Shown here: piece after piece, positions 3,017 to 10,717 of the stretch | Layout of the letters: every line of letters begins with the position of its first letter | How positions within the stretch are numbered: the stretch's first letter is position 1 | Origin: a virus | Strand: one strand, 5' to 3' | Virus record (IMG/VR): IMGVR_UViG_3300042545_001134 | Location: 56,600-120,599 of that record | Length of the DNA stretch: 64,000 nucleotides | Notes under the pieces: model-generated | Databases searched by the model: none | Seen by the model: the letters and a program-made list of their open reading frames with translations, nothing else | What the model was told of the DNA's origin: nothing | Program-made: the position numbers and the translations under genes

Positions 3017-3050
3017 GACTCAGGATGGTATCCTGGATTTTGTTTGGCAA
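3017..3050 (+). repeat. Intergenic element: hairpin CAGGAT-ggt-ATCCTG + GATTTTGTTTGGCAAGG
   Basis: 6-bp stem immediately 5' of the conserved core. Confidence 0.6.
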
Positions 3051-3060
3051 GGACACCCGT

Positions 3061-3098
3061 GTTGTAACATCTAACACTGTCGATTTTGTTTGGCAAGG
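3061..3098 (+). repeat. Intergenic element: hairpin GTGTT...AACAC + GATTTTGTTTGGCAAGG, abutting the ATG at 3099
   Basis: Conserved core at 3082-3096. The gene start (atgtgtatgaca) follows directly. Confidence 0.6.
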
Positions 3099-3866
3099 AT
3101 GTGTATGACAGAACTATTTATATGTATGACACAGAAACTAATAAACCTACTGAATGAGGACGATACTCAAAAGGTAGAACAAATGATACAAGACTTCGAG
3201 GGGTACAACCAAAATGGTATCGAGGTGGTTATGGTGAAGAAAGGTGATAGTGGTGGGGCCATAATGATGATACGGATAACATCCCCAACAATAACAGATG
3301 ATATAGTAAACGAAAAGTTAGAGGTCATCTCAAAGGACTTACAGTCCAAAGGGTATGGTGACCTAATTTTACTTTTCGTAGTTAGTGCCGTATACTATAC
3401 ACCTGAAGGTGTGGATTTAAAAATCGATGTGATGAACTATCAACCACACCAAATCAAAAATAACCTGAGATATGAGTACCCTTCAATTCAGGATATACTA
3501 ATGGGTAATGTGGACTTTACTATACAATCCAATGTAATACCTACGGTTAATCAGGACACCGCAGAGTGGATTCGTATTAAGAAGAAGAGATGTATGACAG
3601 TATATCAGGTACTCCAAAAAGGTTCAGTTAATGGTGTGTCATACACACTAGGTCCCATCCATGGGATGAGTGAGGTGGAACCTACGGTTACTCCGAACTA
3701 TAAAAAGACCTTACAGAGGGACACCATTAATCAACTTCTGTTATCCGTCGAATTAAACGTCCGTATTACAGAGGTCTCCGACCTCAATAGAAAGGACGAA
3801 GTCTCATACGGTATCAAAGAGAAGTTCGAAAAGTTTGGTGTCAACGTGGAAGTCATGGTGAACTAA
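3090..3866 (+). CDS. Hypothetical protein (~255 aa)
   Basis: ORF-track frame. The track start at 3090 is TTG inside the repeat core, so the ATG at 3099 is the more likely start. Confidence 0.5.
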   Translation: MARMCMTELFICMTQKLINLLNEDDTQKVEQMIQDFEGYNQNGIEVVMVKKGDSGGAIMMIRITSPTITDDIVNEKLEVISKDLQSKGYGDLILLFVVSAVYYTPEGVDLKIDVMNYQPHQIKNNLRYEYPSIQDILMGNVDFTIQSNVIPTVNQDTAEWIRIKKKRCMTVYQVLQKGSVNGVSYTLGPIHGMSEVEPTVTPNYKKTLQRDTINQLLLSVELNVRITEVSDLNRKDEVSYGIKEKFEKFGVNVEVMVN

Positions 3867-3918: not shown

Positions 3919-4153
3919 ATTTTAGGACCGATATAACGATATCCATAGTATACATTTCCAGGAAATTTAAATTTATGTCCTTACTTCACACAAGGTACAA
4001 TCCCAGGGTAAATGTCACTGAGTGGTAAAAAGTGGGGGAAAGTGGCATTGTAATACGCCCAGCCCAAAAACCGGTCATTTTGACCTGACAAAAGTAGGGG
4101 ATTTTCGTTACGACAAAAAATGTCTGGATAGTAGGGTTAAAAACGGGGTTTTT

Positions 4154-4498
4154 TTAGGGGTTATTTTTAGAATCATAAACCAATGGTTCCTCACATACCG
4201 GACACTCATCCAGTACAATCATATTGTTCCTGCGGAACGACCAACGTTCCACGGTAGGTAATTCATCTACTGTAAGAACCGTATAACCATCCATACATTT
4301 TACTTCACCATCTATATCATAGTACCTACCTTTATACCTTGTTACTATATGGTTTTTTCTTTGAGAAATATATGGGGTACAATCTTTATACATCTTCTTT
4401 AGTAGGATATGAAACCTATAACATCCTCCTTCGGTATAGATGTATCTTATGTACCCATCTGTATTTCTCAGTTCATCTATGAATGTTAGTATATTCAT
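4154..4498 (-). CDS. Hypothetical Cys-containing protein (114 aa)
   Basis: ORF-track frame with C-terminal CPVCEEP, a possible zinc-ribbon half-site. Confidence 0.4.
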   Translation of the reverse strand: MNILTFIDELRNTDGYIRYIYTEGGCYRFHILLKKMYKDCTPYISQRKNHIVTRYKGRYYDIDGEVKCMDGYTVLTVDELPTVERWSFRRNNMIVLDECPVCEEPLVYDSKNNP

Positions 4499-4519
4499 TT
4501 TATACTTTATGGTATTATA

Positions 4520-4804
4520 CTATATGGTATTATTGGAATCAACTATCCTTCTATACAATTCATGTTGTAATCTATAAGTCTCTAATCTTTGTTGTTCTTC
4601 ATTAATAGTTATGGTATTATTCTCAATTGGATTGTGTCTTCTTCTATATCGTTCATGACGTATTCTATAACTTTCTTCTTCTGCCTCTATACCATACCTT
4701 AACGTATCTCTTATTCTTCTTCTTACAGATTCTTCTAATTCATTGGGATATACTTCTATTATACTATTATCAATATATCCCCTGCCAAGTTTAAAATTGT
4801 TCAT
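4520..4804 (-). CDS. Small hypothetical protein, MNNFKLGRGY family (94 aa)
   Basis: Shares its N-terminus MNNFKLGRGY and ~37 bp of start-region DNA with the next ORF. Confidence 0.45.
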   Translation of the reverse strand: MNNFKLGRGYIDNSIIEVYPNELEESVRRRIRDTLRYGIEAEEESYRIRHERYRRRHNPIENNTITINEEQQRLETYRLQHELYRRIVDSNNTI

Positions 4805-4813
4805 ATATATGGT

Positions 4814-5116
4814 TTAAGACATAAGACTGTCTATTATTTTATCCTGTAATTCAAATATACTATCCATGTTGATATTATCATAATTCAATTCCTCCATAAC
4901 GTATTCTGCCCAAACAATATAGTGGGTAAACGTGAGATTATCCTTTATTGATACAATATCCGTGGCAACCCTATTAAACCCCTCATATTTTATCTCAATA
5001 CGGATTGTGGTTTCATCTATATGATATAGTATTATCGATAACCCATATTGGGATATGATTTTGGTATTATATCCCCTGCCAAGTTTAAAGTTGTTCATAT
5101 ATATGGATTTCTTCAA
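4814..5116 (-). CDS. Small hypothetical protein, MNNFKLGRGY family (100 aa)
   Basis: Tandem paralogue of 4520-4804. The duplicated start region is tatcccctgccaagtttaaa(a/g)ttgttcatatatatgg. Confidence 0.45.
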   Translation of the reverse strand: MKKSIYMNNFKLGRGYNTKIISQYGLSIILYHIDETTIRIEIKYEGFNRVATDIVSIKDNLTFTHYIVWAEYVMEELNYDNINMDSIFELQDKIIDSLMS

Positions 5117-5195
5117 TTTATAGGTTTTAACCCCCTCGATTTTATATCTACACCATAAACAACGTAGAGATACTTATATTATAAAAGTAATCACA

Positions 5196-5273
5196 GTTGT
5201 ATATACCTTTCAAATTGTGATTATAAACAACTGCAGAACAAATATCAACCTGTGTAGAACAGTTGTATACACC
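5196..5273 (-). CRISPR. Solo repeat-spacer unit: degenerate 36-nt repeat, 30-nt spacer, 12-nt partial repeat fused to scaffold A
   Basis: 5196-5231 gttgtatatacctttcaaattgtgattataaacaac vs array consensus gttgtatacacctttcaaataagaggtatttacaac. Spacer is 5232-5261. 5262-5273 gttgtatacacc is the repeat 5' end. Confidence 0.7.
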
Positions 5274-5390
5274 AATAAAAAGTATTTAGTGAGTGGGTTA
5301 TTACCCCGAGATTATCTCCTCCTGTTTATTCAGGGAATCACTATGGGTTGTACAACCAACCCCATCACTTGTGGTGATGAAAATATCTTG
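5274..5390 (-). ncRNA. Conserved omega-RNA/tracrRNA-like scaffold, copy A, overlapping the 3' end of the nuclease CDS
   Basis: About 85% identical to 7151-7273 in its conserved blocks. Contains hairpins CCTG-tttatt-CAGG and GGGTTG-tacaac-CAACCC, the latter with a compensatory change in copy B. The strand is inferred. Confidence 0.65.
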
Positions 5391-6728
5391 TTTTTTCTGT
5401 AGACCTTTTAATAGTCTACCTTTCTTACTCTTACCTTTTACTTCGTTACCTTCAGCGTAAGTTATATTATATGCCCCAACAATATCGGCATCCTTTAGTT
5501 TACCGTAATCGTCACACTCAATGTTAATACAGGTGAATTTGGTTTTATCCTTATCCTTTCTATTCTCCTTATCCACATTCTTACAAGTTGGACATGTAAT
5601 AGATGTATCTTTTGGATTCACCCACAGGATTTGAATCCCCACCATCTTTGCTTTATATTCAATATCCGTTTGAAGTTGATAATATGCCCACGATTTTAAA
5701 AACAAATCTTTAGTGTTTGTGGTTATACCAGTTAAGTCCTCCATCTTAATAATACCCACATTGTATTGTTGGGCAATATCAATAACATCCCTACTGATAT
5801 CGTGATTCATTAACACGGACCAATTGTGTTCCTTTTCCTTTAATCTTTCCATTCCCAACATCTTTCTTGTTCTTCCATGTCCACCCTTGGCAAACTTCAT
5901 GGATTGTTGAAGTGCTCTTCGTATCTTATAGAACTTCATTCTCTCAGTTTGAATCTTTTCACCGATTGAAATCTGTGATGGTTGATGTTTCTCCCCGTCA
6001 ATGTATATTGATACTGGTCTGTTTATACCCAAATCAATTCCCATTACCTTATCAGGAATCATATCCTTTGATTTTGTATCAGGTACTGTACATGTTAATA
6101 ATAAAATAAAATCTTCATCCTTAATTTGAATAGAACTGGTGTTCATTTTGTATTCACCATTCAATATTCTATTGACAATTTTTTCATTACCACTTCTATC
6201 CCTTCCGTAATGTAATTTGAATTTAATTCCTTTGTGAATACTTCTCTCTGATGACGATAATGGTAAGTTAAAAACATAATCCTCCCCTTCTTTACTCACC
6301 ACAGGTTCTTTATTTACCGTACCTTTAAATGGTATTGTTAATGATGTTTTTCTAAATGATGGTATTGACATCTTTCCTTGTAAAATATCATAAAAACTCT
6401 CATCAATAGTTTTATATATCTTTTGACAAAACGACGATTTTATGTTCGATGATATGATGGTATTTTTCTTCATTAAGTTATAACCCATATTCTCCACCAT
6501 CGCCCCGTATTTTTCCTTGAAAATCTCTTTTGATTTAACTTTAGTAATATTAGTTGAATTTTTTATCTCATCCAACTCGTACTGGTTACAAACAGTTAAC
6601 CTAATAACTTCGTTTCCAATTTGAACCAAGTCAGATGCAATTCTTTTTACGTAATTGTACGATGCAGTTCTGTCCTTGCTGGTTTCACCAACCGCAATCA
6701 ATTTGATTTTTCTTGTGATTATTGACAT
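5301..6728 (-). CDS. TnpB/Cas12-like RNA-guided RuvC endonuclease (475 aa)
   Basis: RuvC-I GIDLGINRP, RuvC-II IIKMEDLTG, YKAKMVGIQILWVNPKDTSITCPTC..CINIEC zinc finger, RuvC-III DADIVGAYNI. This is the canonical TnpB/type V order. Confidence 0.85.
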   Translation of the reverse strand: MSIITRKIKLIAVGETSKDRTASYNYVKRIASDLVQIGNEVIRLTVCNQYELDEIKNSTNITKVKSKEIFKEKYGAMVENMGYNLMKKNTIISSNIKSSFCQKIYKTIDESFYDILQGKMSIPSFRKTSLTIPFKGTVNKEPVVSKEGEDYVFNLPLSSSERSIHKGIKFKLHYGRDRSGNEKIVNRILNGEYKMNTSSIQIKDEDFILLLTCTVPDTKSKDMIPDKVMGIDLGINRPVSIYIDGEKHQPSQISIGEKIQTERMKFYKIRRALQQSMKFAKGGHGRTRKMLGMERLKEKEHNWSVLMNHDISRDVIDIAQQYNVGIIKMEDLTGITTNTKDLFLKSWAYYQLQTDIEYKAKMVGIQILWVNPKDTSITCPTCKNVDKENRKDKDKTKFTCINIECDDYGKLKDADIVGAYNITYAEGNEVKGKSKKGRLLKGLQKKQDIFITTSDGVGCTTHSDSLNKQEEIISG

Positions 6729-6753
6729 ATCATGTTCTATTTTATGTTCATCG

Positions 6754-7093
6754 TTATATTAAAAACTTCAAGTAAGAGGTATTTACAACATAAATCCCAT
6801 TAGTTCGTATGGGTTCGTAGTTGTATACACCTTTCAAATAAGAGGTATTTACAACGTACTTGATGACCTGCAACAGGTCCATCAGTTGTATACACCTTTC
6901 AAATAAGAGAAACCCAAAGTACATGTTGTATACACCTTTCAAATAAGAGGTATTTACAACGTTTTCTCTTTCCCATGAGGTGCATCACCTGTTGTATACA
7001 CCTTTCAAATAAGAGGCATTTACAACTATTAACGGATGTACCAAAAATTAACATATAGTTGTATACACCTTTCAAATAAGAGGCATTTACAAC
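6754..7093 (-). CRISPR. CRISPR-like array of 36-bp repeats and 29-31-bp spacers
   Basis: Repeat GTTGTATACACCTTTCAAATAAGAGG(T/C)ATTTACAAC at 6820, 6925, 6991, 7058. Truncated copy at 6885-6910 and degenerate copy at 6754-6789. Spacers are unique. Array lies 25 nt upstream of the nuclease start codon. Confidence 0.85.
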
Positions 7094-7126
7094 ATGGTTA
7101 ACCCCATCTTATTATGAATCAACATA

Positions 7127-7273
7127 TTGTGAATGATTCCCTTATTAAAAAATAAAAGGTATTTAGTGAGTGAGAAGTTAATCTCCAGAAAAATTCCATC
7201 CTGTTTATTCAGGATTCACTATGGGCTGTACAACCAGCCCCACCAAAGTTTTACCTCTGATGAAAATATATTG
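7127..7273 (-). ncRNA. Conserved omega-RNA/tracrRNA-like scaffold, copy B, with a degenerate repeat at its array-proximal end
   Basis: Blocks AATAAAAGGTATTTAGTGAGTG and CCTGTTTATTCAGG..TCACTATGGGCTGTACAACCAGCCCCA..TGATGAAAATAT shared with copy A. An AT-rich promoter-like region follows at 7274-7340. Confidence 0.65.
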
Positions 7274-7465
7274 AAGTTTCCAATATTTCAAAGAACAATA
7301 CAAAGATACGTGTATTTTTTAGATATCCAAATTTTTTTTTAAAAATATTTTTTTATTCATCATCCTCCAACGAATCACTGTATGTGGGTTTATCCTTTGG
7401 GACATAGTCCTCATCACAATTATCAATATGGTCCTCGTCGTTCATAATAGATTTATTTTAAATAA

Positions 7466-7761
7466 CACCCTGATTTATCCAACTTACAGGTGTCGTGGCT
7501 GTCCCCGTTACCGGGTTAGAAATAGACTTTTGGATAGATAGTCAATCTAAATAGAGCCTTTCCCTATCAGAAGTTCCATATGGTTATCACACCACTTCTC
7601 ATCGTATTGGACATACTATCCGGTGATTAACCGAATCGCGTAGTCAGGACAGGAATCGAACCTATAACCAGTTTTCTAAGCCCTACGTGCAGGATTTTCA
7701 CTGCCTCGTACTGGTGTCTAATCGAGCATACACAGCGTTTAACCAATTCCGCCACCTGACT
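7466..7761. repeat. Segmental duplication, copy 1 (tRNA-like gene plus ~170 nt flank)
   Basis: 7580-7761 is near-identical to 9325-9506. 7466-7580 is about 70% similar to 9205-9325. Confidence 0.7.
7641..7761 (-). tRNA. tRNA-like element, atypically long (121 nt)
   Basis: Minus strand reads AGTCAGG..GGCG-GAATTGGTTAAA-CGCT (D-arm with GG)..ATAGG-TTCGATT-CCTGT (T-arm)..CCTGACT-A. The anticodon arm is not canonical by eye. Confidence 0.45.
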
Positions 7762-7949
7762 ATTAGCGTTCTATTAAAAATGGAAGTTATTGCGCCTATA
7801 CCATTTCGTTGATACCACCAATATGGCGTTCATTTTATTCCATTGTTCAAGTTTTGTGAACATTTTCAAATATAGATTTTTATTCCATCATTGCGCCTAT
7901 TTTTCTTGCTTTGCGCCTATTTTTTCCACCATAAGGCTAAAATTAGAAA

Positions 7950-8189
7950 TTATTTTCCAAATGTTTCGTTGTAGTATTGTTGAGAGCCAATTACATATTC
8001 ATCTGAAATGCCAAATTTGTAAGCATTCATTATCTCCTGCTTGTGCATTTCTTTGGCTTCGTCAACATCCACTAAAAAATTATCTATCATTGTTGTTCTA
8101 ACAATTCCATCTGGTTCAGATTCTATTATTAAAATTCTTCGTTTCAATTCAGATATTAACCATTCTATACTGCTTTTTTGTTTTTCCAT
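7950..8189 (-). CDS. Small hypothetical protein (79 aa), YYNETFGK-tail family
   Basis: C-terminus YYNETFGK shared with 8326-8544. Conserved upstream motif. Confidence 0.45.
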   Translation of the reverse strand: MEKQKSSIEWLISELKRRILIIESEPDGIVRTTMIDNFLVDVDEAKEMHKQEIMNAYKFGISDEYVIGSQQYYNETFGK

Positions 8190-8325
8190 TTTATTTGTTG
8201 TTTAAATGTTTTCTATTTCTTTTTTAATTCTTCATAAATACCACCTAAAATAATCATTATGATTAGTTGTATAAATGTAGTTACCCAATAATAAGCGTGT
8301 TCCATAAGTTTTTTTGTTATTTAAG

Positions 8326-8544
8326 TTATTTTCCAAATGTTTCGTTGTAGTATTTTTCTGCTGTTTCGTATGGCTTATCTCTAAAATGCCACGATTGATT
8401 ATAGCAATTGATGATTTGTTGCTTCTCCATTTCTTTGGCTTGTAAAAGAATATCTTTATACATTTTCCTTAATTCTTCTGAATCAAAAGATACTAATCCT
8501 AATAATTTTAATTCAATAAATCTTACTGCTGTTTGTTTTTTCAT
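8326..8544 (-). CDS. Small hypothetical protein (72 aa), YYNETFGK-tail family
   Basis: Paralogue of 7950-8189. Confidence 0.45.
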   Translation of the reverse strand: MKKQTAVRFIELKLLGLVSFDSEELRKMYKDILLQAKEMEKQQIINCYNQSWHFRDKPYETAEKYYNETFGK

Positions 8545-8933
8545 TTTGTTTGTTGTTTAAGTTTTACAATCTCAATCAGTTTTTTAATACACTCAAGCTC
8601 TGCTTCTTTATAAGTACCATTAAATTTTAAAGGTTCAGTTCCACATAGTCTATTCCATTTATCATTAATAATTAGATAAGAAAACTCTTGAGTACCAACT
8701 TCAATTAATCCTGTTAATCTATATTCTTCTCTAAACCATCTAAATACTTGTTGGTAAATTGGGGCTTTAATAAGATTCTTTTCTAATAAATTAGAATCAA
8801 ACATTTGTATTAGTATTTCACCAGTTGGCTCTTCCCATTCGGTAACAATACAATATCTACCAAAACAAGGTTCATCAAATCCTAATTCTTTTAAAGCTAA
8901 TGCTTCTTGGTATGGCATAAATTCTTTTTCCAT
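8541..8933 (-). CDS. Hypothetical protein (130 aa)
   Basis: ORF-track frame. Shares the same conserved upstream sequence as the two preceding genes. Confidence 0.45.
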   Translation of the reverse strand: MEKEFMPYQEALALKELGFDEPCFGRYCIVTEWEEPTGEILIQMFDSNLLEKNLIKAPIYQQVFRWFREEYRLTGLIEVGTQEFSYLIINDKWNRLCGTEPLKFNGTYKEAELECIKKLIEIVKLKQQTK

Positions 8934-9122
8934 TTTGTTTGTTGTTTAAGTTATATAATTTGTTAAATGTTTTTTTGGTGCTTGTTAAATGTTTGTATAA
9001 ATTTTTAGTAACGTTTCATGCACTTTGTCCAGTTAATTCATTAAAAGACTGGACATTACACGCCTTTAAATGCTTAAGCCTATTGGCTTTTGTTAATTGT
9101 ACCTATGGTACTTTGTTAATTG

Positions 9123-9204: not shown

Positions 9205-9506
9205 TAACACCCTATTTTATCCAACTACAGGTGTTAAGGCTGTCCCTATTGCTAGGTTAGGAATAAACTTATTTAAATTAGATAGTCAATCTAAATAGAA
9301 CCTTGTCCTATTAGCAGTTCCATATGAGGAATCACCTCACTTCTCATCGTATTGGACATACTATCCGGTGATTAACCGAATCGCGTAGTCAGGACAGGAA
9401 TCGAACCTATAACCAGTTTTCTAAGCCCTACGTGCAGGATTTTCACTGCCTCGTACTGGTGTCTAATCGAGCATACACAGCGTTTAACCAATTCCGCCAC
9501 CTGACT
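9205..9506. repeat. Segmental duplication, copy 2
   Basis: See 7466-7761. Confidence 0.7.
9386..9506 (-). tRNA. tRNA-like element, identical second copy of 7641-7761
   Basis: 121/121 identity with the first copy. Confidence 0.45.
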
Positions 9507-9927
9507 ATTTTTTCTTATTCTTCTTTAATTCTACCACCTTCTCATACTCCTCAGATTCAATTAAATTATCAATAACCATCTTTTCAAATATGTTTTTGTC
9601 ACTTTCATTATCCGATAATTCGTGATGTGCACCACTTTTGAAAAGTTGGTACATACTTTCAAGTGACTTAGAATCGTTCTTCATTTGATAATTTAATGAA
9701 TAGAGCATTAAAGAGTTTAATAAACCAAACCAAGTATGTTCAGATTCGGTAAATTCGGATTCGTCTTTACCTTTGGATAATATTTTATTCCCAACTTCAA
9801 AGATATCATCAATATCAATTGGAGATTTTAATCTGACATCACTGTTTTCAATCAAATCAATCATAATCTGAGGTATGTGTGTATATTTTTTCATGGCACA
9901 AAGATAATCAATATATTCTAAAAACAA
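9505..9927 (-). CDS. Hypothetical protein (140 aa)
   Basis: ORF-track frame. Confidence 0.45.
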   Translation of the reverse strand: MFLEYIDYLCAMKKYTHIPQIMIDLIENSDVRLKSPIDIDDIFEVGNKILSKGKDESEFTESEHTWFGLLNSLMLYSLNYQMKNDSKSLESMYQLFKSGAHHELSDNESDKNIFEKMVIDNLIESEEYEKVVELKKNKKK

Positions 9928-10584: not shown

Positions 10585-10717
10585 GGCACAAATATAATAG
10601 GTTATTTAGAATATTCCAAATTATTCTTCAATGTTTTTTGATTTGAACCATAGGAGTATAACCCCCACGATTCCGTAGACAATTAAAAATGTCAATATGT
10701 GTTCAACGATTATCATA

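What the first reader, a model, noticed from the sequence alone, without database searches (positions are those of the whole stretch)
5274..7273. Two direct copies of a ~120-nt conserved element flank the nuclease and array, with a compensatory base-pair change (structured RNA)
5274-5390 and 7151-7273 share long identical blocks: AATAAAA(A/G)GTATTTAGTGAGTG, CCTGTTTATTCAGG, TCACTATGGG, TGATGAAAATAT. A central ~25 nt is diverged between them. The hairpin GGGTTG-tacaac-CAACCC in copy A is GGGCTG-tacaac-CAGCCC in copy B. The T to C change on one arm is matched by A to G on the other, a classic covariation signature of a functional RNA helix. A second hairpin, CCTG-tttatt-CAGG, is invariant. Copy A overlaps the last ~30 codons of the nuclease ORF, exactly where IS200/605 omega-RNAs sit relative to tnpB. 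The element therefore looks like an omega-RNA/tracrRNA-type scaffold present in two copies. The loop TACAAC and the palindrome GTTGTACAAC could also pair with the repeat termini (GTTGTA...TACAAC).
Basis: seen in the sequence. Interest (0 to 1): 0.88.

Follow-up and report, generated by a model that had tools for sequence, protein, structure and literature searches.

The report
Duplicated Cas12f guide-RNA scaffold in phage
The two conserved ~120-nt elements are real copies of a structured guide-RNA scaffold for a small phage-encoded Cas12f-type nuclease. One copy is a free-standing tracrRNA ahead of a CRISPR array, and the other is embedded in the end of the nuclease gene and joined directly to its own guide, so split and fused guide forms sit side by side.

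Summary
A covariance model built from homologues finds exactly two matches in the 64-kb window: 7151-7276 (125 bits) and 5274-5393 (109 bits), both on the minus strand.

Across 37-43 homologous scaffolds the shared fold is strongly supported. It has hairpins P1-P5 and a long-range closing helix. About 94-96% of cells are paired, against 36-48% in slid controls, and 16 of 21 pairs show compensatory changes.

The hairpin loop GUUGUA pairs with the 3' end of the CRISPR repeat (UACAAC). The scaffold tail AUACCUUU pairs with the repeat segment AAAGGUAU. Both pairings covary.

The nuclease (475 aa) has a Cas12f fold: TM 0.71-0.81 to Al3Cas12f and AsCas12f, about 0.5 to ISDra2 TnpB and LaTranC. The scaffold is homologous to the experimentally validated Al3Cas12f/MG119 tracrRNA.

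Copy B is a split tracrRNA: it ends in a U-run and is followed by a leader and a 6-repeat array. Copy A overlaps the last 30 codons of the nuclease ORF. It is fused through a 7-8-nt loop to the repeat 3' handle, a spacer and one more repeat, making a natural single-guide RNA.

Both copies are orthologously conserved in six related phage lineages. This is a new variant of a known kind and is moderately interesting. No targets were found, and there is no expression evidence.

The parts
7147..7276 (-). Scaffold copy B, tracrRNA-type and split. Elements: P1 at 7241-7262; P2 at 7223-7240 with loop at 7229-7234; closing helix 7216-7220 with 7165-7169; P3 at 7198-7215; P4 and P5; anti-repeat tail plus U-run at 7147-7164.
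   Evidence: CM hit 7151-7276 at 125 bits. The MFE fold gives this architecture with z -4.46. Covariation is shown.
7277..7296 (-). 5' extension of copy B. It holds the P0 hairpin and the conserved motif GTTCTTTGAAATATTGG (7280-7296). This motif precedes every free-standing scaffold in the family, including the Al3Cas12f orthologue, but not the ORF-embedded A copies. It is either a promoter element or the 5' end of the RNA.
   Evidence: A sigma-70-like match TTGAAA-17-TATTTT lies at 7291->7263. This is a consensus match only.
7094..7146 (-). Leader between copy B and the first repeat. It is conserved in related loci (ATTCACAATATGTTGATTCA...) and contains a weak promoter-like match.
6754..7093 (-). 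CRISPR array of module B. The 36-nt repeat is GTTGTAAATACCTCTTATTTGAAAGGTGTATACAAC on the minus strand. Repeats lie at 7058-7093, 6991-7026, 6925-6960, 6885-6908 (only the 3' 24 nt), 6820-6855 and 6754-6789 (degenerate terminal repeat). Spacers lie at 7027-7057, 6961-6990, 6909-6924 (16 nt), 6856-6884 and 6790-6819.
5301..6728 (-). Cas12f-type RNA-guided nuclease, 475 aa. RuvC residues D232, E330 and D415 and the zinc-finger cysteines C379, C382, C400 and C405 are invariant in 48 homologues. Residues after about 446 are merely the translation of scaffold A.
   Evidence: Family and fold. C-terminal tail.
5274..5393 (-). Scaffold copy A, overlapping the last 30 codons of the nuclease ORF. Elements: P1 at 5363-5379; P2 at 5345-5362 with loop at 5351-5356; P3 at 5321-5334; tail at 5274-5287.
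   Evidence: CM hit at 109 bits. The MFE fold gives the same architecture with z -3.24. Orthologues exist in 5 other lineages at 91% mean identity.
5262..5273 (-). Repeat 3' handle (GGTGTATACAAC) fused in cis to copy A. Its last 6 nt complement the P2 loop.
5166..5261 (-). Mini-array of module A. It comprises a 30-nt guide/spacer at 5232-5261, a full repeat of a different subtype at 5196-5231 (GTTGTTTATAATCACAATTTGAAAGGTATATACAAC on the minus strand), and a possible second spacer at 5166-5195 with no closing repeat.

Best explanation
The locus is a phage-borne type V-F-like (Cas12f-type) CRISPR system without adaptation genes. Its guide-RNA scaffold gene exists in two old, separately conserved copies on the minus strand.

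Copy B is a tracrRNA. It is transcribed on its own and ends at a U-run just after its anti-repeat tail. It pairs in trans with crRNAs from the adjacent array through two short duplexes. The tail AUACCUUU pairs with the repeat segment AAAGGUGU. The P2 loop GUUGUA pairs with the last six repeat bases, UACAAC, next to the spacer; this is a pseudoknot-like contact.

Copy A is the same scaffold embedded in the 3' end of the nuclease mRNA, in the position of a TnpB omega-RNA. It is covalently joined by a 7-8-nt loop to the repeat handle and a spacer. It has the topology of an engineered Cas12f sgRNA, and one more repeat follows it.

The nuclease has intact RuvC and zinc-finger motifs. Loaded with either RNA form, it would cut DNA complementary to the spacer, presumably next to a 5' PAM.

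Shown here: the two copies, their fold, the covariation of the intramolecular helices and of both scaffold-repeat contacts, homology to a validated tracrRNA, and RNA-level rather than protein-level constraint on copy A.

Inferred: transcription and termination, processing of copy A from the mRNA, activity of copy A, the PAM, the dimeric state, and the biological targets.
For: Two copies only: the CM matches in the window are 125 and 109 bits.

Fold:
- On the MAFFT alignment of 37 scaffolds, 94.0% of cells pair, against 36-47% in slid controls. 16 of 21 pairs have compensatory change, and the covariation score is 0.518 against at most 0.122.
- On the CM alignment of 43 scaffolds, 96.3% of cells pair and the score is 0.559.
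- Each copy folds on its own into this architecture.

Scaffold-repeat contacts:
- The loop/repeat-end helix is 98.1% paired, with compensatory variants at 2 of 6 pairs.
- The tail/repeat helix is 92.1% paired, with compensatory change at 6 of 9 pairs.
- Slid controls give 31-55%.

Nuclease:
- phmmer gives E 1e-48 to Al3Cas12f.
- Foldseek TM is 0.71/0.75 to Al3Cas12f and 0.72/0.81 to AsCas12f, against 0.50 to ISDra2 TnpB and 0.49 to LaTranC.
- The catalytic residues are invariant.

Homology to a validated guide:
- The Al3Cas12f and MG119-3 tracrRNAs align with the scaffold at P2, the closing helix and the tail. Their crRNA end UCCAAC complements their loop GUUGGA.
- The model finds the tracrRNA of an 80%-identical Al3Cas12f orthologue at L024 1956-2089.

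Copy A is under RNA constraint:
- There is no third-codon-position excess in the last 33 codons (59/30/34; syn:non 28:78). The gene body gives 154/75/508 and 411:198.
- Relatives without copy A have unrelated protein tails after ...KKQ.
- The tail has pLDDT below 50.

Old duplication kept in six lineages: A-A identity is 91%, B-B is 79% and A-B is 68.5%. At least one compensatory change occurs among the A copies themselves.

Fused, full-repeat-fused and split forms all occur across the family.
Against: There are no expression data, so transcript ends, processing and termination are all inferred.

No protospacer was found for any spacer. This covers the INPHARED phages, one IMG/VR exact scan, the window itself and all fetched loci. 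Targets and PAM are therefore unknown.

Copy A's cis anti-repeat hairpin is weak: about 5 bp, two of them G-U.

Four relatives in the same clade have lost copy A (L268, L273, L274, L275), so it is dispensable.

The loop-repeat helix is mostly invariant. Its covariation rests on a handful of lineages.

The contact alignment A4 was assembled by hand from chosen segments, which favours the proposed pairing.

The nuclease does not reach NCBIfam's curated Cas12f2 cut-off. It is named only 'guided TnpB family'.
Confidence: 0.78

Rival explanations
1. Only copy B is functional. Copy A, with its one-repeat mini-array, is a decaying relic of the ancestral layout 'nuclease - scaffold - array'. It is retained for now because it overlaps the gene end or a downstream promoter.
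For: Most distant relatives have the scaffold and array downstream of the nuclease. Copy A's cis hairpin is weak and its tail carries C-to-U changes. Module A has only 1-2 units. Four clade members lack copy A. A strong sigma-70-like match (11/12) lies inside module A at 5248->5220 and could drive the downstream genes.
Against: Copy A scores 109 bits against the family model and is 91% conserved among six lineages whose nucleases are 75-95% identical. Substitutions there do not follow codon positions, so something other than the protein is constrained. Compensatory changes occur among the A copies. The guide that follows copy A differs in every lineage, which indicates turnover rather than a frozen relic.
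Confidence: 0.17
2. The nuclease gene plus copy A is an IS200/IS605-type transposon. The nuclease is a TnpB and copy A is its omega-RNA, which ends at the transposon right end and guides cleavage of the empty donor site.
For: NCBIfam guided_TnpB scores 147.9 bits, above its cut-off. Sources name the homologues 'IS605 OrfB'. Copy A overlaps the ORF 3' end exactly as omega-RNAs do.
Against: No TnpA or other transposase family is recorded next to the gene in any of the loci fetched with their called genes. The flanking genes are syntenic between related phages; for example, the 257-258-aa gene on the opposite strand is present in the window, L265 and L273. The 'guide' is followed by a CRISPR repeat and differs between orthologues. 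The fold is much closer to Cas12f than to TnpB. The scaffold is homologous to a CRISPR tracrRNA.
Confidence: 0.03
3. The similarity of the two elements is a by-product. It comes either from protein-coding constraint on copy A plus a recent duplication or gene conversion, or from assembly artefacts. It does not reflect a functional RNA.
For: Copy A lies inside an ORF. Within this one window, only a single compensatory pair distinguishes the two copies.
Against: The codon-position pattern is lost over copy A. Same-locus A-B identity (66-72%) is no higher than between loci, and the A and B copies form orthologous groups. The pair of copies recurs on independent contigs from different samples. Family-wide covariation supports the fold.
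Confidence: 0.02

Closest known systems
Type V-F CRISPR-Cas12f with tracrRNA:crRNA, specifically the Al3Cas12f / Cas12f-MG119 family (PMC13186708; PDB 9NZO/9NZR)
   Same: It is the best sequence and fold match for the nuclease. The tracrRNA is homologous, with the same P2 hairpin whose loop complements the crRNA 3' repeat end, the same closing helix (..GAG/CACUC..) and the same anti-repeat tail. The upstream motif, U-run, leader and 36-nt repeat layout are the same in an 80%-identical orthologue. The engineered sgRNA (tracr-GAAA-repeat handle-spacer) has the topology of natural copy A.
   Different: The nuclease shares only about 25-28% identity over the structural alignment. The locus is phage-borne, and no cas1/cas2/cas4 is recorded nearby. 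There are two scaffold genes instead of one. One of them is embedded in the ORF end and naturally fused to a guide. Arrays contain truncated 'handle-only' units.
TnpB with omega-RNA/reRNA (IS200/IS605, e.g. ISDra2)
   Same: The nuclease belongs to the TnpB superfamily. Copy A overlaps the 3' end of the ORF, with the scaffold 5' and the guide 3'. A pseudoknot-like contact next to the guide is a feature of these RNAs; that statement rests on my knowledge of the ISDra2 structures and was not tested here.
   Different: There is no transposase and there are no transposon ends. The genomic position is syntenic. The guide varies between lineages and is followed by a repeat. TM to ISDra2 TnpB is only about 0.50.
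TranC, transposon-CRISPR intermediates (Jin et al., Cell 2025; known to me from its abstract and)
   Same: A compact TnpB-derived nuclease is associated with a CRISPR array and also with a single-molecule, reRNA-like guide. It illustrates the 'functional RNA splitting' idea. No adaptation genes are present. Phage-borne examples have been reported (CauTranC9).
   Different: The fold is Cas12f-like, not LaTranC-like (TM 0.49). Here the split and fused forms are two separate scaffold genes in one locus. Membership of any defined TranC clade could not be tested, because the paper and its sequences are not held.
dCas12f-sigmaE chimeric single gRNAs of Bacteroidetes (PMC12259090)
   Same: It is a Cas12f-lineage protein using a natural single guide whose 3' part resembles a CRISPR repeat. 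The authors propose that the guide split (TnpB to Cas12f) and then collapsed again. The only close genomic relative found here is in a Flavobacteriaceae MAG, so the host phylum may be the same.
   Different: The nuclease here has an intact RuvC triad. No rpoE association was seen. A conventional array and a tracrRNA are retained alongside the chimeric guide.

Membership tests
Cas12f (type V-F) effector complex | Compact RuvC nuclease with the Cas12f fold | tested here: met
   Foldseek TM is 0.71/0.75 to Al3Cas12f and 0.72/0.81 to AsCas12f. phmmer gives E 1e-48. The model has mean pLDDT 82.7.
Cas12f (type V-F) effector complex | Intact RuvC D-E-D triad and zinc-finger cysteines | tested here: met
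   D232, E330, D415 and C379, C382, C400, C405 are invariant in 48 homologues.
Cas12f (type V-F) effector complex | Adjacent CRISPR array transcribed with the repeat-derived handle 5' of the spacer | tested here: met
   There is an array of 6 repeats with the degenerate repeat at the nuclease-proximal end. Fused forms show the order scaffold-handle-spacer.
Cas12f (type V-F) effector complex | A tracrRNA with anti-repeat complementarity to the repeat | tested here: met
   Two covarying contacts were found. The scaffold is homologous to the validated Al3Cas12f tracrRNA.
Cas12f (type V-F) effector complex | Curated sequence-model membership (NCBIfam CRISPR_Cas12f2) | tested here: not met
   The score is 90.6 bits against a cut-off of 450. 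The protein passes only the broader guided_TnpB model.
Cas12f (type V-F) effector complex | Asymmetric homodimer on one guide RNA; 5' T- or C-rich PAM | not testable with these tools
   This needs biochemistry or structure determination. No protospacers were found from which to infer a PAM.
Cas12f (type V-F) effector complex | Adaptation genes (cas1, cas2, cas4) in the locus. These are common but not universal. | tested here: not met
   No such Pfam family appears among the called neighbours in the fetched loci. The ORFs flanking the window locus are small. They were not scanned against any protein-family library here.
IS200/IS605 TnpB-omegaRNA transposon | TnpB-family nuclease with the guide RNA overlapping its 3' end | tested here: met
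   guided_TnpB scores 147.9 bits. Copy A overlaps 30 codons.
IS200/IS605 TnpB-omegaRNA transposon | Mobile unit with TnpA and/or defined ends; guide equals the flanking DNA at the right end | tested here: not met
   There is no transposase in the neighbours. The context is syntenic. The guide is followed by a repeat and varies between lineages.
TranC (transposon-CRISPR intermediate) | TnpB-like nuclease that has both a CRISPR array and a single-molecule reRNA-type guide | tested here: met
   Met at the sequence level only: module B is a tracrRNA plus array, and module A is a fused scaffold-guide.
TranC (transposon-CRISPR intermediate) | Placement in one of the published TranC clades | not testable with these tools
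   The paper is not held, and the preprint's supplements are not held. The only structural representative, LaTranC 9jfq, matches at TM 0.49.
dCas12f-sigmaE RNA-guided transcription | Nuclease-dead RuvC | tested here: not met
   The catalytic residues are intact. The match to dCas12f 9n9c is weaker (TMq 0.59).

The most novel reading that the evidence does not exclude
This phage Cas12f lineage keeps two functional states of one guide scaffold side by side. One is an mRNA-embedded natural single guide that couples nuclease expression to a privileged spacer. The other is a free tracrRNA that serves an array. Across the family, guides convert repeatedly between fused and split forms. Arrays grow or shrink by copying 'handle + spacer' mini-units without Cas1-Cas2. 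If so, the family is a living series of intermediates for how CRISPR arrays arise from omega-RNA-type guides, or collapse back into them.
Probability: 0.3. Interest if true: 0.75.

Novelty: new variant of a known kind. Interest (0 to 1): 0.58.

Why it matters
Two recent proposals concern how type V guide RNAs evolved. One holds that type V CRISPR systems arose when a single TnpB guide RNA split into a tracrRNA and a crRNA. The other holds that some Cas12f descendants later re-fused them.

This locus and its relatives show both states, and forms in between, for one homologous scaffold. In one clade both states sit in the same locus and have been conserved since before six phage lineages diverged. 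That makes the transition testable with natural sequences: does the nuclease use both RNAs, and does the fused copy compete with the array or regulate it?

There is also a practical result. The work yields a covariance-supported guide design for a family of about 450-475-aa phage nucleases, including a natural sgRNA linker. Finally, the locus adds a case of a phage carrying a CRISPR effector and arrays without adaptation genes.

Tried and rejected
- **Rfam.** An E-value-mode scan of 4000-9000 and a gathering-threshold scan of the whole window gave no family for either copy. The scaffold class is not in Rfam.
- **DNA similarity.** A search of the locus against 50,697 phage records gave no match.
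- **Protospacer searches.** All were negative: six spacers against INPHARED at E up to 1; a 23-nt seed of spacer 2 against IMG/VR; all window spacers against the window with up to 6 mismatches; 185 spacers from all arrays against 1.9 Mb of fetched loci. The last gave only self-matches and one unexplained 22-nt A-rich match (L011 spacer 1 to L078).
- **IMG/VR motif scan.** The 17-nt degenerate scaffold motif returned mostly chance loci. Only contigs already known, plus L186, were confirmed by nhmmer and the CM.
- **TranC literature.** The TranC paper could not be read, and the preprint's sequence tables are not held. TranC clade membership is therefore untested.
- **Promoter and terminator scans.** They gave no more matches than shuffles. 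Promoter statements are inference only.
- **Repeat fold.** My first fold of the repeat used coordinates shifted by 3 nt (third and fourth sequences). It is not used as evidence.
- **Rejected readings.** These were an IS605 transposon, a protein-coding artefact, and recent gene conversion. Reasons are given under the rival explanations.
Full report

Read on the minus strand, the region has the following order:
- copy B (7276->7147);
- a 53-nt leader;
- a CRISPR array of six 36-nt repeats (7093->6754);
- a 475-aa ORF (6728->5301);
- copy A (5393->5274), which overlaps the last 30 codons of the ORF.

A covariance model built later from 37 homologous elements matches the 64-kb window at exactly two places: 7151-7276 (125 bits, E 5e-27) and 5274-5393 (109 bits, E 3e-23). 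The next best match has E 0.15.

- GGTGTATACAAC, the last 12 nt of the repeat (5273->5262);
- a 30-nt spacer (5261->5232);
- a full 36-nt repeat of a different subtype (5231->5196).

Each copy therefore heads its own guide module.

**2. The protein**

The ORF passes NCBIfam's 'guided TnpB family' model (147.9 bits, cut-off 100) and Pfam's Cas12f1-like TNB domain. It does not reach the curated Cas12f2 cut-off. More than 580 homologues exist, and the sources that name them call them 'IS605 OrfB' or 'putative transposase'.

In an alignment of 48 homologues the RuvC residues D232, E330 and D415 and four zinc-finger cysteines are invariant.

By sequence, the closest solved structure is Al3Cas12f (9NZO/9NZR, E 1e-48), followed by AsCas12f, OsCas12f and CnCas12f.

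An AlphaFold2 model (mean pLDDT 82.7) superposes as follows:

| Target | TM |
|---|---|
| Al3Cas12f | 0.71/0.75 |
| AsCas12f | 0.72/0.81 |
| ISDra2 TnpB | 0.50 |
| LaTranC | 0.49 |

The nuclease is therefore Cas12f-type and predicted to be catalytically active.

**3. Context**

Relatives come overwhelmingly from IMG/VR viral contigs and freshwater metagenomes. Among 185,579 species genomes only one close relative was found, in a Flavobacteriaceae MAG. Large ORFs in the window match phage protein families.

In the loci fetched with their called genes, no neighbour carries a Cas1, Cas2, Cas4 or transposase family. Flanking genes are syntenic between related phages. The system is a resident phage locus, not a mobile insertion sequence.

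**4. The RNA fold**

Iterated nhmmer recovered 38 distinct scaffold instances, 37 of which were aligned; the covariance model later raised the set to 43 from related loci. RNAalifold and single-sequence folds agree on one architecture:
- a variable hairpin P1;
- hairpin P2 with a 6-nt loop;
- a single-stranded tail, AAAUACCUUUU.

Pair counts support the fold on both alignments:

| Measure | MAFFT alignment, 37 sequences | CM alignment, 43 sequences |
|---|---|---|
| Cells paired | 94.0% | 96.3% |
| Cells paired, partner slid 1-3 columns | 36-47% | 36-48% |
| Pairs with compensatory change | 16 of 21 | 16 of 21 |
| Covariation score | 0.518 | 0.559 |
| Covariation score, slid | at most 0.122 | at most 0.098 |
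| Shuffles reaching the observed values | 0 of 500 | 0 of 500 |

In that helix 5 of 6 pairs covary. The 'invariant' CCTG/CAGG hairpin covaries at all 6 pairs once relatives are included.

**5. Contacts with the repeat**

For 35 distinct modules I joined three segments: the P2 region, the tail, and the 3' 22 nt of the module's own repeat (or of the cis handle). I then counted two proposed intermolecular helices.

The loop GUUGUA pairs with the last six repeat bases, UACAAC. 98.1% of cells are paired. Matched variants occur in four lineages:
- GUUGUG/CACAAC in L085 and L010;
- GUUGGA/UCCAAC in L088;
- GUUGUU/AACAAC in L011.

The tail AUACCUUU(U) pairs with AAAGGUAU in the repeat. 92.1% of cells are paired, and 6 of 9 pairs show compensatory change. 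Examples are CAACC/GGUUG in L085, AUACUAU/AUAGUAU in L007 and L241, and AAAUUCUUC/GAAGGGUUU in L268. Slid controls give 31-55%.

There is a caveat. This alignment was assembled from segments I chose, and the loop helix is mostly invariant, so its support rests on a few lineages.

**6. Link to a validated RNA**

The supplement of PMC13186708 gives the working sgRNAs of Al3Cas12f and Cas12f-MG119-3. Their tracrRNAs align with the window scaffold at three places:
- P2 (GGGCGC-GUUGGA-GCGCC);
- the closing helix;
- the tail.

Their crRNA ends in UCCAAC, which is complementary to their loop.

The model R1 was built only from the phage family. It nevertheless finds a match at L024 1956-2089, just downstream of a gene 80% identical to Al3Cas12f. 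That stretch is 77% identical to the published Al3Cas12f tracrRNA. L024 also shows the same upstream motif (GTTCTTTGAAA), a U-run after the tail, a leader and a 36-nt array. The scaffold is therefore a Cas12f tracrRNA by homology to an experimentally active one.

**7. What distinguishes the two copies**

Across the family the scaffold's 3' end takes three forms:
- **Split.** The tail ends in a U-run and is followed by a leader of about 50 nt and an array. Examples: window copy B, L001_B, L265_B, L273, L268, L083, L084, L088, L093 and the Al3Cas12f orthologue.
- **Fused to a complete first repeat.** Examples: L002_B, L267_B, L275, L009, L010.
- **Fused through a short loop to the repeat's 3' handle and a spacer.** Examples: window copy A and its orthologues, L087, L005, L006, L008, L011, L241.

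Copy A has the topology of the engineered sgRNA (tracr-GAAA-handle-spacer), with UUUUUAUU in place of GAAA.

The upstream motif GTTC(T/A)TTGA precedes every free-standing scaffold but not the ORF-embedded A copies. This fits an own promoter or 5' end for B, and release of A from the nuclease mRNA. Both points are inference.

**8. Is copy A constrained as RNA?**

Among six orthologous genes, substitutions in the gene body show the usual third-position excess. For codons 300-400 the counts by codon position are 154/75/508, with synonymous:non-synonymous 411:198. In the last 33 codons the counts are 59/30/34, with 28:78.

Clade members that lack copy A share the protein up to ...KGLQKKQ and then have unrelated short tails. 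The model's residues 454-475 have pLDDT below 50. The C-terminal 'peptide' is therefore just the translated scaffold.

Identities point to an old duplication without gene conversion:

| Comparison | Identity |
|---|---|
| A copies with each other | 91% |
| B copies with each other | 79% |
| A with B | 68.5% |
| A with B in the same locus | 66-72% |

Compensatory change also occurs among the A copies themselves. Independent two-scaffold loci exist in L085, L241 and L008. Four clade members have lost copy A, so it is not essential.

**9. Arrays and targets**

Spacers differ completely between the window and a locus whose nuclease is 95% identical. The guide after copy A differs in every lineage. 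Content therefore turns over, even though no adaptation genes are present.

Arrays often contain truncated units that keep only the 3' 15-24 nt of the repeat, with short spacers. The window has one such unit, at 6885-6924. This fits the view that the handle is the functional part.

No protospacer was found anywhere I could search. Targets, PAM and biological role remain unknown. Inter-phage or plasmid competition is the obvious guess.

**10. Comparison and verdict**

The closest known system is type V-F Cas12f with its tracrRNA:crRNA (the Al3Cas12f/MG119 family). The position of copy A mirrors the TnpB omega-RNA.

The coexistence of a single-molecule guide with an array is what Jin et al. (Cell 2025) call TranC. 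I know that paper from its abstract and from citing papers. This protein, however, is Cas12f-like rather than LaTranC-like, and clade membership could not be tested.

Hoffmann et al. (PMC12259090) describe chimeric single guides for nuclease-dead Cas12f in Bacteroidetes and propose a split-then-collapse history.

The present locus is a new variant of these known kinds. It has a nuclease-active, phage-borne Cas12f with two conserved scaffold genes, one split and one naturally fused, within a family that shows every intermediate. The interest is moderate (0.58), because the concept is anticipated by recent work and because function and targets remain inferred.

Noticed in passing
window 7641-7761 (- strand); duplicate region 7535-7764 vs 9279-9509: Rfam calls a tRNA (37.3 bits) that spans 121 nt for a 71-position model, so it carries an insertion of about 50 nt. 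ARAGORN finds no tRNA anywhere in the window. The whole ~230-nt region is duplicated 1745 nt away: 179 nt at 99% identity and 48 nt at 90%.
   Followed up: partly
L083 3328-3446; L084 3096-3420; L281 2184-2451; L241 2894-2972 and 4454-4545; window 6885-6924: Arrays in this family often contain or end in mini-units. These keep only the 3' 15-24 nt of the repeat and are separated by spacers of 12-25 nt. In the Flavobacteriaceae MAG locus L241 the whole array is of this kind, with a ~17-nt repeat AAAATAGTATATACAAC.
   Followed up: partly
window 5220-5248 (- strand): The best sigma-70-like promoter match of the region (TTGATA-17-TATAAT, 11 of 12) lies inside the spacer and repeat of module A. It points toward the downstream small ORFs at 4814-5116 and 4520-4804. 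It may be chance, or module A may double as their promoter.
   Followed up: no
window 4780-4815 and 5074-5109 (- strand ORFs 4520-4804 and 4814-5116): The two small ORFs just downstream of module A begin with nearly identical sequence (...CCCTGCCAAGTTTAAAnTTGTTCATATATATGG on the + strand). They look like tandem paralogues of unknown function.
   Followed up: no
L011 5013-5040 vs L078 3478-3499: The cis-fused first guide of L011 matches 22 of 22 nt just upstream of an unrelated, distant TnpB-like gene in L078. The sequence is A-rich and its significance is unclear.
   Followed up: no
window 3036-3099 and 2547-2657: Short direct repeats turned up in a crude k-mer scan, for example GATTTTGTTTGGCAAGGA twice, 45 nt apart, just upstream of the ORF at 3090-3866. 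They could be an operator or regulatory repeat.
   Followed up: no
window 10586-10705 (- strand): A weak third match to the scaffold model (19.6 bits, E 0.15) is most likely noise.
   Followed up: no
module B repeats, e.g. window 7058-7093 (- strand): The 5' half of the module-B repeat (GTTGT-AAATACCTCTTATTT) nearly copies the scaffold's P2 loop plus its tail (AAATACCTTTTATTT). Each repeat therefore looks like a duplicated 'tail-loop-handle' end of a fused scaffold. Module A and L002-type repeats share only the 3' 20 nt.
   Followed up: partly
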